Assembly (NCBI RefSeq): GCF_024700885.2
Contig: NZ_CP117016.1
Strand: one strand, 5' to 3'
Origin: Escherichia coli
GTDB taxonomy: Bacteria; Pseudomonadota; Gammaproteobacteria; Enterobacterales; Enterobacteriaceae
DNA: 64,000 nt
Shown here: positions 10,973 to 11,745 of the stretch, in pieces
Layout: each line of letters starts with the position of its first letter
How positions within the stretch are numbered: position 1 is the first letter of the stretch
The notes under the pieces: model-generated
Database searches by the model: none
Seen by the model: only the letters and a program-made list of their open reading frames with translations
What the model was told of the DNA's origin: nothing
Program-made: the position numbers and the translations under genes

Positions 10973-11326
10973 GTGTTTAAAACCAAATGGTTTGCAAGGG
11001 AAGCCAGGTCTCATGCAATAACAGATGAAGAGTTGTGCCGGGCCATTTTAGAAACAGAACAAGGTAAAGCTGATGCACTTGGCGGTGGCTTTTTTAAAAA
11101 GCGCCTTCACAAAAATCGTGAGCGTGCAATTATTCTGGCGAAAGGGGGAAGCAATTGGTTTTACACGTTTTTATATGCAAAACAGGATATGTCGAACATC
11201 AATAGTCAGGAACTGGCTGGGTTTCGTGAACTTGCAAAGCATTATGCCTTCCTGACGAAAGCCCAACTAACAGCAATGATTAACACTAAAGAACTGACAG
11301 AGATCTGCTATGACTGCAAAAACTAA
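10973..11326 (+). CDS. Type II toxin of the RelE/ParE superfamily, HigB-2-like (DUF1044-type), with a GTG start
   Basis: 117 aa with the pattern GGGFFKKRL...RAIILAKGG..WFYTFLYAKQDMS...EL, characteristic of HigB-2-type toxins. It overlaps the downstream HTH gene by 17 nt and is absent from the K-12 nepI-yicN interval. Confidence 0.55.
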   Translation: MFKTKWFAREARSHAITDEELCRAILETEQGKADALGGGFFKKRLHKNRERAIILAKGGSNWFYTFLYAKQDMSNINSQELAGFRELAKHYAFLTKAQLTAMINTKELTEICYDCKN

Positions 11327-11633
11327 ATTTAAAAGTCCTGCATTTGAGGCTATTCACAGCGCAGCGGCTGGATTGTCCAGCGTCAATGCTATTTCTGCCG
11401 AAACGATGCGTACTTTTGACAAAGCCTGCCTGACCAGCGTGCAAGACTTACAACCTGTTGAGATAAAAGCACTGCGGGAAAAATTAAAAGTGAGTCAGCC
11501 CGTCTTCGCTCACTATCTCAATACCAGCGTTTCAACTGTACAAAAATGGGAAAGTGGCGCTAAACGCCCCAATGGCATTTCATTAAAACTGCTCAGCATT
11601 GTGCAAAAACACGGGCTGGAGGTGCTGCTGTAA
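11310..11633 (+). CDS. XRE-family HTH antitoxin (HigA-2-like) of the preceding toxin
   Basis: 107 aa with a helix-turn-helix segment (QPVFAHYLNTSVSTVQKWESGAKRPNG). It is translationally coupled to the upstream toxin ORF. Confidence 0.55.
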   Translation: MTAKTKFKSPAFEAIHSAAAGLSSVNAISAETMRTFDKACLTSVQDLQPVEIKALREKLKVSQPVFAHYLNTSVSTVQKWESGAKRPNGISLKLLSIVQKHGLEVLL

Positions 11634-11669
11634 ATAGAACGTAGATAATGCGTTCACCTACTGTCAGTT

Positions 11670-11745
11670 CCGATACCGGATGCGGCATGAACGCCTTATC
11701 CACCCTACAGGTCAGGCGCGGTCTGTAGGCTGATAAGACGAAGCG
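11670..11745. repeat. REP (repetitive extragenic palindromic) element pair
   Basis: gataccggatgcggcatgaacgccttatcc...cctacag and gtctgtaggctgataagacgaagcg match the REP consensus (GCCGGATGCGGCG...). Confidence 0.5.

What the first reader, a model, noticed from the sequence alone, without database searches (positions are those of the whole stretch)
10973..11745. HigB-2/HigA-2-like toxin-antitoxin module with adjacent REP element inserted between nepI and yicN
A GTG-initiated 117-aa ORF has the RelE/ParE-like HigB-2 pattern (GGGFFKKRL..RAIILAKGG..FYTFLYAKQDMS). It overlaps by 17 nt a 107-aa XRE-HTH protein (toxin first, then antitoxin, the HigBA order). The backbone nepI-yicN interval normally lacks these genes. 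A degenerate REP pair lies just downstream.
Basis: partly seen in the sequence, partly recalled or inferred. Interest (0 to 1): 0.5.

Follow-up and report, generated by a model that had tools for sequence, protein, structure and literature searches.

The report
Decaying HigBA-2 toxin-antitoxin operon beside nepI
This is an ordinary, already-annotated toxin-antitoxin gene pair of the Vibrio HigB-2/HigA-2 type; it was not inserted recently but is an old resident next to nepI that E. coli is losing, and in this strain the toxin has lost its normal start codon.

Summary
The two overlapping ORFs are real and the family call is right. The toxin (10973-11326) scores 131.8 bits on Pfam PF06296, the family that holds V. 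cholerae HigB-2. The antitoxin (11310-11633) has a C-terminal XRE helix-turn-helix, and its best solved relative is V. cholerae HigA-2 (E 8e-10).

The "insertion" reading is not supported.
- The module lies beside nepI in Salmonella, Citrobacter, Klebsiella, Kluyvera and a second Escherichia species.
- The K-12-type "empty" site keeps a 45-nt scar that still encodes toxin residues ETEQGK, with synonymous changes only.
- The REP pair is present in K-12 too, so it is backbone and not cargo.

About 32% of complete E. coli genomes (1716 of 5426) keep the module, always on the chromosome. Among carriers, at least 604 of about 1715, this window included, have the family's ATG start mutated to ATA. 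That leaves a GTG 16 nt from the Shine-Dalgarno sequence. 138 of these also carry a nonsense codon, and the two of that type examined also have a frameshift. The antitoxin was intact in all ten alleles examined.

A conserved palindrome, TA(G/T)CAC-N3-GTG(C/A)TA, overlaps an extended -10 and is the likely operator. The mechanism (ribosome-dependent mRNA cleavage, autorepression) is inferred and was not tested. Interest is low: this is a routine module with a tidy decay history.

The parts
10834..11677 (+). Segment present in module-bearing E. coli and replaced by a 45-nt scar in K-12-type genomes
   Evidence: Alignment with K-12 MG1655. The sequences are identical up to 10833 and again from 11678. 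The right edge may lie about 6 nt further left, because K-12 GATTACC resembles window CGATACC (11671-11677).
10919..10947 (+). Candidate operator: inverted repeat TAAAGTATTGCAC-ttg-GTGATATACTTTA, with core half-sites TTGCAC (10926-10931) and GTGATA (10935-10940)
   Evidence: The inverted repeat was found. The core palindrome TA(G/T)CAC-N3-GTG(C/A)TA sits at the same distance from the start codon in Escherichia, Citrobacter, Klebsiella, Salmonella, Serratia, Edwardsiella, Pectobacterium, Photorhabdus, Yersinia and Pseudescherichia loci. Binding by the antitoxin is inferred, by analogy with the single inverted-repeat operator of V. cholerae higBA2 that extends over the -10 element (PMC11006873).
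10936..10944 (+). Candidate extended -10 promoter element, TGaTATACT
   Evidence: Read from the sequence; the equivalent TGcTATAnT is conserved in relatives. The consensus scan did not report a promoter here because there is no good -35, so this assignment is an inference.
10953..10956 (+). Shine-Dalgarno core AGGA, within the conserved ACAGGA
   Evidence: Conserved in all relatives about 10 nt upstream of their ATG. In the window it lies 10 nt from ATA 10967 and 16 nt from GTG 10973.
10967..10969 (+). ATA codon at the position of the family's ATG start (start-codon loss)
   Evidence: This position is ATG in E. coli F9792, M12, ECE313 and Z1323, in Escherichia sp. E1V33, and in nearly all the other-genus relatives printed. 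It is ATA in the window, in strains 1190 and EFF60, and in O157:H7 and O145:H28 strains.
10973..11326 (+). HigB-2-type (PF06296) RelE-superfamily toxin gene, 117 aa from GTG
   Evidence: PF06296 at E 1.9e-38. The AF2 model has mean pLDDT 82.9, and its top Foldseek PDB hits are V. cholerae HigB2 entries 5JA8, 5JA9 and 8A0X. PGAP annotates it as a type II TA system RelE/ParE family toxin, WP_001309066.1.
11051..11069 (+). Part of the toxin gene (codons E27-K32 and flanks) that survives as a relic in K-12-type empty sites
   Evidence: The K-12 spacer has GAAACGGAACAGGGCAAAG against window GAAACAGAACAAGGTAAAG. All 3 differences are synonymous third-codon positions.
11310..11633 (+). HigA-2-type antitoxin gene: 107 aa, N-terminal ~45 aa without a domain hit plus a C-terminal XRE HTH (residues 52-96)
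   Evidence: HTH_3 at E 6e-8. The best PDB match is V. cholerae HigA-2 5JAA_A, E 7.9e-10, residues 46-102 against 38-94. A homologue follows the toxin gene in all 80 loci from the species scan, overlapping it by about 14-17 nt in nearly all Enterobacterales loci.
11634..11677 (+). Module-specific 3' tail containing a degenerate REP-like inverted unit (about 11641-11660)
   Evidence: Inverted repeat 11641-11656 / 11688-11703. Sub-threshold Rfam naRNA4 match (I recall naRNA4 as a REP-derived RNA) at 11640-11705, minus strand, 29.2 bits against a gathering score of 59.5. This tail is absent from K-12.
11678..11746 (.). REP pair (11679-11708 forward; about 11725-11746 inverted) lying between the convergent antitoxin and yicN genes; this is backbone, not cargo
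   Evidence: Hairpin-forming arms found; RNA fold z-score -2.0. Present at 94% identity in K-12, which lacks the module.

Best explanation
The locus is a chromosomal type II toxin-antitoxin operon of the HigBA-2 kind.

How it most likely works:
- One promoter, an extended -10 overlapped by a palindromic operator, drives a toxin-first bicistron whose two genes overlap by 17 nt. This suggests translational coupling.
- By homology, the toxin is a RelE-fold, ribosome-dependent mRNA endonuclease. It keeps the basic and aromatic residues that V. cholerae HigB2 needs for activity. Their counterparts here are R44, R51, Y68 and K70.
- By homology, the antitoxin neutralises the toxin through its N-terminal ~45 residues. 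It should also repress the operon as an HTH dimer bound to TTGCAC-N3-GTGATA.

History:
- The module is an old resident beside nepI in Enterobacteriaceae, and E. coli is losing it.
- About two thirds of complete genomes carry only a 45-nt deletion scar.
- In a third of the carriers, this window included, the toxin's ATG has become ATA. Toxin synthesis must then start at the weak ATA or at a GTG placed 16 nt from the Shine-Dalgarno sequence, so it is probably much reduced.
- The antitoxin stays intact.

What is shown and what is inferred:
- Shown: family membership, gene organisation, synteny, the allele census, the scar, and conservation of the operator motif.
- Inferred: RNase activity, neutralisation, operator binding, and reduced translation.
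For: Family:
- PF06296 at 131.8 bits.
- V. cholerae HigB-2 scores 34.5 bits on the same model, and PMC11980606 lists it as a member.
- Foldseek ranks 1-4 are V. cholerae HigB2, probability 0.99-1.0.
- The antitoxin matches V. cholerae HigA-2 at E 7.9e-10.

Active site:
- PMC5416850 shows that R51, R64, Y82 and K84 of V. cholerae HigB2 are needed for activity.
- Y68 and K70 align with Y82 and K84 by HMMER.
- R44, Y68 and K70 align with R51, Y82 and K84 by hhalign.
- K42, A69 and K70 are invariant in 34 relatives, and K43 and R51 are nearly so.

Operon:
- The 17-nt overlap.
- Antitoxin pairing in 80 of 80 loci.
- The operator, extended -10 and Shine-Dalgarno sequence are conserved across genera.
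- V. cholerae higBA2 has an analogous single inverted-repeat operator over its -10 (PMC11006873).

Antiquity and loss:
- The arrangement nepI(-), toxin(+), antitoxin(+), yicN(-) is found in Escherichia sp. E1V33, Citrobacter, Klebsiella and Kluyvera. nepI-module adjacency is also found in Salmonella.
- Escherichia, Kluyvera, MGYG-HGUT-00110 and C. amalonaticus copies group together on long branches. Rouxiella, which is not at this site, sits basal to them. The Klebsiella oxytoca group forms a separate clade.
- Module and flanks diverge in parallel among E. coli lineages and E1V33.
- The scar peptide IETEQGKDY matches toxin ILETEQGKAD. A 6-aa exact match was reached by 5 of 20,000 shuffles and by 0 of about 19,700 real 45-mers.

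Decay:
- Exact 60-mer counts are ATA 466, ATA plus W8-stop 138, and ATG 783 and 287.
- Strains DFL.5 and E20 are annotated as frameshifted.
- The antitoxin is intact in all 10 alleles examined.
Against: - There is no direct sequence link to a solved toxin. phmmer and a family profile found nothing in the PDB, and hhalign probabilities are very low.
- TM-scores to V. cholerae HigB2 are only 0.44-0.60.
- The R51-to-R64 equivalence rests on the strand order in an AF2 model, not on an alignment tool. hhalign placed that strand differently.
- Y68 is F in some relatives.
- The model has an extra C-terminal helix and strand that V. cholerae HigB2 lacks. SehA, another HigB-like toxin with an extra helix, turned out not to be an RNase (PMC12817084).
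- The promoter scan found nothing upstream of the toxin.
- The effect of ATA or GTG on expression was not measured. PGAP annotates a GTG-started gene as intact.
- K. indica groups away from the other syntenic copies, beside non-syntenic Yersinia and near the cluster of near-identical, island-borne copies. Some horizontal replacement at the site therefore cannot be excluded.
Confidence: 0.7

Rival explanations
1. Recent insertion. A mobile HigBA-2 cassette, perhaps with the REP element, landed in a normally empty nepI-yicN spacer in some E. coli strains.
For: - 68% of complete E. coli genomes lack the genes.
- The family is mobile elsewhere. Near-identical copies sit at the end of a ~4-kb integrase-bearing island in Serratia, Cedecea, Tatumella and Erwinia, and on plasmids of rhizobia, Pseudomonas and Legionella.
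- K. indica's copy at this site groups away from the other syntenic copies, near the cluster of near-identical, island-borne copies.
Against: - There is no integrase, transposase or flanking direct repeat in the window.
- The REP pair is shared with K-12.
- The same site is occupied in at least six genera.
- Module divergence tracks flank divergence.
- The empty allele carries a toxin-gene relic with synonymous-only changes.
- The E. coli type is never on a plasmid in 5,426 genomes.
Confidence: 0.07
2. Orphan antitoxin. In this allele the toxin is effectively not made or is inactive (ATA start, V40F at a ≥90% conserved column). The locus then works only through the antitoxin, as a transcription factor or as an anti-addiction factor against incoming related toxins.
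For: - Start-codon loss in at least 604 of about 1715 carriers; outright nonsense plus frameshift alleles keep an intact antitoxin.
- The window's V40F changes a residue that is V in at least 90% of relatives.
- The antitoxin is 75-85% identical to those of the mobile copies, whereas the toxin is only 65-71% identical.
Against: - The ORF is otherwise open, with all four putative catalytic residues present.
- A GTG two codons downstream can serve as a start, and PGAP annotates it as intact.
- F40 also occurs in an ATG allele, ECE313.
- The antitoxin being better conserved than the toxin is a family-wide pattern, seen in 89% of pairs, not a peculiarity of this lineage.
Confidence: 0.25
3. Non-nuclease toxin. 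Like Salmonella SehA, the protein has a RelE-like fold but acts by binding a cellular protein such as RNase III rather than by cutting mRNA on the ribosome.
For: - PMC12817084 shows that a HigB-like toxin with an extra C-terminal helix lacks RNase activity and inhibits RNase III.
- The AF2 model here also has extra C-terminal elements, H96-104 and E108-110.
Against: - The paper describes SehA as 40% identical to E. coli HigB, which PMC11980606 Table 1 places in a different Pfam family (PF09907). Its numbered residues do not fit the Salmonella PF06296 protein P0035.
- SehA lacks the canonical active site, whereas this family keeps the V. cholerae HigB2 catalytic residues.
Confidence: 0.08
4. 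Abortive-infection role. The module's selected function is abortive infection against phages rather than addiction or stress response.
For: RelE/ParE-superfamily toxins include defence toxins (PMC11980606). In the mobile relatives, the gene next to the module encodes a ResIII/helicase protein.
Against: - The toxin has no PADLOC hit. The antitoxin shows only generic HTH hits.
- There are no defence genes beside it in the window.
- Widespread decay in E. coli argues against strong selection.
Confidence: 0.08

Closest known systems
Vibrio cholerae HigB-2/HigA-2 (VCA0468/VCA0469; PDB 5JA8, 5JA9, 5JAA, 8A0X)
   Same: - Same Pfam toxin family, PF06296.
- Toxin-first order.
- V. cholerae HigB2 is the closest solved fold.
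- Counterparts of its catalytic R51, R64, Y82 and K84 are present.
- The antitoxin has the same layout, an N-terminal segment plus a C-terminal XRE HTH, and 5JAA is its best PDB match.
- A single inverted-repeat operator lies over the -10.
   Different: - Only about 20-22% identity in the structural alignment; no pairwise or profile sequence hit.
- The beta2-beta3 loop is shorter, and the model has an extra C-terminal helix and strand.
- The operator sequence differs: TA(G/T)CAC-N3-GTG(C/A)TA against TGTACGC-N5-GCGTACA.
- The genes overlap by 17 nt.
- The setting is a core chromosome locus beside nepI, not the Vibrio superintegron (the superintegron location is from my own knowledge).
- The start codon is lost in this allele.
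PF06296/HTH pairs beside nepI in other Enterobacteriaceae (Salmonella enterica, Citrobacter freundii and C. amalonaticus, the Klebsiella oxytoca group, Kluyvera)
   Same: - Same position and orientation relative to nepI, and relative to yicN except in Salmonella.
- The antitoxin start overlaps the end of the toxin gene at the same offset.
- Same operator, -10 and Shine-Dalgarno layout.
- Toxin 65-71% and antitoxin 76-84% identical.
   Different: Those copies keep the ATG start and encode 119 aa. The Escherichia toxin is the most diverged relative to its antitoxin.
E. coli K-12 RelBE and the other ribosome-dependent RelE-superfamily toxins (YoeB, YafQ, HigB/YgjN)
   Same: RelE/BECR fold and presumed cleavage of mRNA in the ribosomal A site. 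PMC5416850 reports that the V. cholerae HigB2 active site resembles that of E. coli RelE.
   Different: Different Pfam families: K-12 RelE is in PF05016 and E. coli HigB in PF09907 (PMC11980606). RelBE has the opposite gene order, and the antitoxin folds differ.
Salmonella SehAB
   Same: A toxin-first HigBA-like operon with an XRE-type antitoxin in an enterobacterial chromosome.
   Different: It is not the same family. SehA is reported as 40% identical to E. coli HigB, and its residue numbering does not fit the Salmonella PF06296 protein. SehA is reported to inhibit RNase III rather than cut mRNA.

Membership tests
PF06296 ('PF_RelE', HigB-2-type toxins) | Scores above the Pfam gathering threshold over the full-length domain | tested here: met
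   131.8 bits against a cut-off of 27; residues 1-111 cover profile positions 3-120 of 120. V. cholerae HigB-2 itself scores 34.5 bits.
PF06296 ('PF_RelE', HigB-2-type toxins) | RelE/BECR fold, closest to V. cholerae HigB2 | tested here: met
   AF2 model with pLDDT 82.9. Foldseek PDB ranks 1-4 are V. cholerae HigB2, probability 0.99-1.0, followed by M. tuberculosis HigB1 and YoeB. TM-scores are only 0.44-0.60.
PF06296 ('PF_RelE', HigB-2-type toxins) | Counterparts of V. cholerae HigB2 catalytic residues R51, R64, Y82 and K84 | tested here: inconclusive
   Y68 and K70 align by HMMER. R44, Y68 and K70 align by hhalign at low probability. R51 is matched to R64 only through the strand order of the model. 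All are conserved or nearly so in 34 relatives, though Y68 is sometimes F.
PF06296 ('PF_RelE', HigB-2-type toxins) | Toxin gene upstream of and adjacent to its antitoxin gene | tested here: met
   17-nt overlap. The same pairing occurs in 80 of 80 related loci.
PF06296 ('PF_RelE', HigB-2-type toxins) | Growth inhibition, and ribosome-dependent mRNA cleavage | not testable with these tools
   This needs expression and cleavage assays. No paper on this E. coli locus was found.
HigA-2-type antitoxins | C-terminal XRE helix-turn-helix domain related to V. cholerae HigA-2 | tested here: met
   HTH_3 at E 6e-8. 5JAA_A at E 7.9e-10 over residues 46-102.
HigA-2-type antitoxins | N-terminal intrinsically disordered toxin-neutralising segment | tested here: inconclusive
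   Residues 1-45 have no domain hit and lie outside the HigA-2 alignment. Disorder and toxin binding were not assessed.
HigA-2-type antitoxins | Single inverted-repeat operator overlapping the -10 of its own promoter | tested here: inconclusive
   A palindrome of the right kind is present and conserved across genera. Binding and the transcription start are not known.
REP / BIME elements of E. coli | Match to the ~35-nt REP consensus, in inverted pairs, in an intergenic region between convergent genes | tested here: met
Inverted partner at about 11725-11746. Shared with K-12.
Mobile cassette or genomic islet insertion | Recombinase gene, target-site duplication, or an empty site without remnants | tested here: not met
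   No recombinase or flanking direct repeats. The empty site contains a toxin-gene relic.
SehAB / PF09907 HigB family | Toxin belongs to the E. coli HigB (YgjN)-like family | tested here: not met
   The only significant Pfam hit is PF06296. SehA's residue numbering is incompatible with the Salmonella PF06296 homologue.

The most novel reading that the evidence does not exclude
The intact antitoxin is kept in E. coli after toxin decay because it works as an anti-addiction factor. It would neutralise the 65-71%-identical toxins carried by the integrase-bearing islands and other mobile copies that circulate among Enterobacterales. It might also repress them through the shared TA(G/T)CAC-N3-GTG(C/A)TA operator. 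That would make a dying chromosomal module a form of immunity against post-segregational killing.
Probability: 0.12. Interest if true: 0.5.

Novelty: new member of a known kind. Interest (0 to 1): 0.22.

Why it matters
- It adds an uncharacterised but very common E. coli member to the small group of studied HigBA-2 (PF06296) modules. It is present in about a third of complete genomes, including O157:H7 and O145:H28 strains.
- The locus is a clean natural series for how chromosomal toxin-antitoxin modules die. The series runs from intact ATG alleles, through start-codon loss and nonsense-plus-frameshift alleles with a preserved antitoxin, to a 45-nt scar in K-12.
- K-12, BL21 and other scar-bearing lab strains are natural deletion hosts for testing the module.
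- Beyond that, it is a routine type II module that annotation pipelines already label.

Tried and rejected
1. Direct sequence link from the toxin to a solved structure. phmmer and a 34-sequence profile gave only noise. hhalign against V. cholerae HigB2, alone or as a 26-sequence profile, gave probabilities below 2%. The link rests on the Pfam model and on Foldseek.
2. SehAB as the Salmonella orthologue. Rejected: it belongs to a different family.
3. My first idea that the K-12 45-nt spacer is homologous to the left end of the module. Rejected: 674 of 1000 shuffles score as well.
4. Nucleotide-level significance of the relic. Not significant on its own: the score is 13, while other 1-kb tiles of the window reach 13-15. 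The case rests on the in-frame 6-residue match and the synonymous-only differences.
5. Consensus promoter and terminator scan. It found no promoter upstream of the toxin and no intrinsic terminator; its only hit is inside the toxin gene at 11106-11133.
6. Rfam. Only a sub-threshold naRNA4 hit, which I read as REP-related.
7. PADLOC. Nothing for the toxin.
8. Literature searches by protein accession and by neighbouring gene names. No study of this locus was found.
9. A test for lineage-specific relaxation of the toxin. The antitoxin is better conserved than the toxin across the whole family, so this is not diagnostic.
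Full report
**Observation.** The window holds two overlapping plus-strand ORFs, 10973-11326 (GTG, 117 aa) and 11310-11633 (ATG, 107 aa). They share 17 nt.
- They lie between nepI (9555-10787, minus strand; NCBIfam NepI equivalog at 851 bits) and yicN (11749-12228, minus strand; DUF1198). adeQ and adeD lie beyond.
- The sequence is E. coli. An identical 961-nt stretch occurs in strain 1190 and many others. There PGAP labels the genes "type II toxin-antitoxin system RelE/ParE family toxin" (WP_001309066.1) and "helix-turn-helix domain-containing protein" (WP_000125646.1).
- Both exact proteins are in public collections on at least 1000 contigs each, under generic names only.

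**Family assignment.**
- The first ORF hits Pfam PF06296 at E 1.9e-38 (131.8 bits, cut-off 27) over its whole length.
It scores 34.5 bits on the same model. A 2025 survey lists HigB-2 (Q9KMA6) as a member of PF06296, with toxin-first gene order and ribosome-dependent mRNA degradation (PMC11980606).
- Direct sequence comparison is too weak to see the relationship.
- An AlphaFold2 model built on 34 relatives (pLDDT 82.9) has V. cholerae HigB2 entries as its four best Foldseek PDB matches (probability 0.99-1.0, TM 0.44-0.60, 20-22% identity). M. tuberculosis HigB1 and YoeB follow.
- The second ORF has an XRE helix-turn-helix at residues 52-96. Its best solved relative is V. cholerae HigA-2 (5JAA, E 7.9e-10, residues 46-102 against 38-94). 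That leaves about 45 N-terminal residues, the region that in HigA-2 is the disordered neutralising segment (PMC5416850).
- A homologue of this antitoxin follows the toxin gene in all 80 related loci recovered from a one-genome-per-species collection.

**Active site.** Alanine substitution of R51, R64, Y82 or K84 in V. cholerae HigB2 reduces activity 170- to 3000-fold (PMC5416850).
- In the window protein, FLYAKQDMS aligns with TIYGKNEMS, so Y68 matches Y82 and K70 matches K84 (HMMER).
- hhalign additionally pairs KKR44 with KIR51.
- R51, at the start of the third strand of the model (ERAIILA), corresponds by strand order to R64 (SRIIYYF). This last equivalence is my inference, because hhalign placed that strand differently.
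- K42, A69 and K70 are invariant in 34 relatives, and K43 and R51 are nearly so. Y68 is sometimes F.
- I therefore favour a RelE-like ribosome-dependent mRNase, but this is not shown.
- A caution comes from Salmonella SehA, a HigB-like toxin that turned out to inhibit RNase III (PMC12817084). SehA is not this family, however. It is reported as 40% identical to E. coli HigB, and its residue numbers do not fit the Salmonella PF06296 protein.

**Regulatory region.**
- An inverted repeat, TAAAGTATTGCAC-ttg-GTGATATACTTTA (10919-10947), lies 20 nt upstream of the coding region.
- Aligning the upstream regions of relatives from more than ten genera shows a conserved core palindrome, TA(G/T)CAC-N3-GTG(C/A)TA.
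- The right half of this palindrome runs into TGnTATAnT, an extended -10. A conserved ACAGGA Shine-Dalgarno sequence follows, about 10 nt before the ATG.
- V. cholerae higBA2 likewise has one inverted-repeat operator that extends over the -10, with a different sequence (PMC11006873).
- The consensus promoter scan did not flag this site, since there is no good -35. The promoter and operator assignments rest on conservation and analogy.

**Start codon.**
- Relatives are 119 aa and begin MRV/MRI-FKTKW. In the window the corresponding codon, 10967-10969, is ATA.
It lies 16 nt from the Shine-Dalgarno core, against 10 nt for the ancestral start.
- From general knowledge of E. coli initiation, ATA is a very poor initiator and a 16-nt spacing is well beyond the optimum. 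Toxin translation is therefore probably much lower in this allele. This is inferred.
- Exact-match counts of four 60-mer haplotypes among about 1715 carriers account for 1674 genomes:

| Haplotype | Genomes |
|---|---|
| ATA (window type, also in O157:H7 and O145:H28 strains) | 466 |
| ATA plus TGG-to-TAG at codon W8 of the 119-aa protein | 138 |
| ATG/GGATC | 783 |
| ATG/GGACC | 287 |

- The two W8-stop genomes I examined, DFL.5 and E20, also carry a C-terminal frameshift, and PGAP calls their toxin genes pseudogenes. Their antitoxin is intact, as in all ten alleles examined.
- The window allele additionally has V40F at a column that is V in at least 90% of relatives. F40 also occurs in an ATG allele.

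**Insertion or loss?** Of 5426 complete E. coli genomes, 1716 hold the module, always on the chromosome and once per genome. Almost all the rest hold only the flanks.
- Compared with K-12, window 10834-11677 (844 nt) is replaced by 45 nt. The REP pair at 11678-11746 is shared (94% identical in K-12) and so is backbone.
- The same arrangement, nepI(-), toxin(+), antitoxin(+), yicN(-), is present in several other taxa:
  - Escherichia sp. E1V33 (toxin 95% identical);
  - two Citrobacter amalonaticus genomes and C. freundii;
  - five species of the Klebsiella oxytoca group and K. indica;
  - Kluyvera and an unnamed gut enterobacterium.
- Salmonella has the module next to its nepI orthologue (87% identical).
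- In a neighbour-joining tree of toxin plus antitoxin, the Escherichia, Kluyvera, unnamed-enterobacterium and C. amalonaticus copies group together on long branches. Non-syntenic Rouxiella sits basal to that group, and the Klebsiella oxytoca-group copies form a separate long-branched clade.
- A tight cluster of near-identical copies spans Serratia, Edwardsiella, Cedecea, Erwinia, Tatumella and Pectobacterium.
- In several members of that cluster the module sits at the end of a shared ~4-kb island. The island encodes an integrase (PF12835) and an AAA_25 ATPase.
- Among E. coli lineages and E1V33, divergence of the module parallels that of yicN and adeQ.
- Finally, frame 2 of the K-12 45-nt spacer reads IETEQGKDY against toxin residues ILETEQGKAD.
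  - The 19-nt core (window 11051-11069) differs at three positions, all synonymous third-codon positions.
  - A 6-residue exact match to the module's proteins was reached by 5 of 20,000 shuffles of the spacer and by none of about 19,700 real 45-mers from the rest of the window.
  - ETEQGK is specific to the Escherichia version of the toxin.
  - The two empty sites whose sequence I read, K-12 and the B2-like strain SF-468, have identical spacers. The 26 two-piece empty-site matches sampled all span the same 802 nt.
- I conclude that the empty state is a deletion scar and that the module is ancestral at this site.

**What it most likely does.** In ATG alleles it is probably a working HigBA-2-type module: an autorepressed, toxin-first operon encoding an A-site mRNase and a high-affinity antitoxin. 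In this window it is probably attenuated. The antitoxin and operator look intact, while toxin initiation is crippled. Whether that leaves a weak module or effectively an orphan antitoxin cannot be decided from sequence. No publication on this E. coli locus was found in the held library.

**Verdict.** The "insertion with REP" interpretation is not supported. The module is a new, uncharacterised member of a known kind. Its interest is modest and lies mainly in its well-resolved decay series.

Noticed in passing
window 1-9353 (minus strand): By identity with strain 1190, the stretch upstream of nepI is part of the ~12.9-kb inverse autotransporter adhesin gene iatC. K-12, O157:H7, Z1323 and SF-468 have yicS there instead. 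Among the strains I looked at, iatC occurs only with the module, but yicS-type flanks occur both with the module (O157:H7, Z1323) and without it (K-12, SF-468). The 3' part of nepI is correspondingly more diverged between the two flank types.
   Followed up: partly
L010 1-6512 (Serratia sp.); also L007, L008, L009, L014, L020: Near-identical copies of the module (DNA 89-94% identical across genera) sit at the right end of a shared ~4-kb island. The island encodes an integrase (PF12835/PF12834) and an AAA_25 ATPase. A ResIII/helicase gene lies just downstream. This looks like a small integrative element that uses the module at its border.
   Followed up: partly
window 11640-11705 (minus strand): Sub-threshold Rfam match to naRNA4/CssrE, which I recall as a REP-derived nucleoid-associated RNA: 29.2 bits against a gathering score of 59.5, E 0.006. 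It spans a degenerate REP-like unit in the module-specific tail plus the shared REP, and the two can pair.
   Followed up: no
L003 (E. coli MS 57-2), locus 2160-3037: One genome has a larger deletion that removes the scar region and the 5' end of nepI, which is annotated as a partial pseudogene.
   Followed up: no
L084 (E. coli O157:H7 NE 1092-2), locus 3255-4588: adeQ, the adenine permease gene two genes downstream, is annotated as frameshifted in this O157:H7 genome.
   Followed up: no
window 51330-51359 (+): A second REP-consensus match in the window, 27 of 30. It was not examined further.
   Followed up: no
window 9555-10787 (minus strand): The longest nepI ORF is 410 aa, but PGAP annotates about 394-396 aa in identical or near-identical genomes, so the mechanical ORF overextends the 5' end. 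The real nepI-to-toxin intergenic spacer is therefore about 233 nt.
   Followed up: no
H96 and H97 in the plasmid collection (NZ_CP141089.1, CP125156.1): Two records of 4.9 and 5.4 Mb in the plasmid database are evidently chromosomes. They account for the only high-identity "plasmid" hits to the toxin.
   Followed up: no
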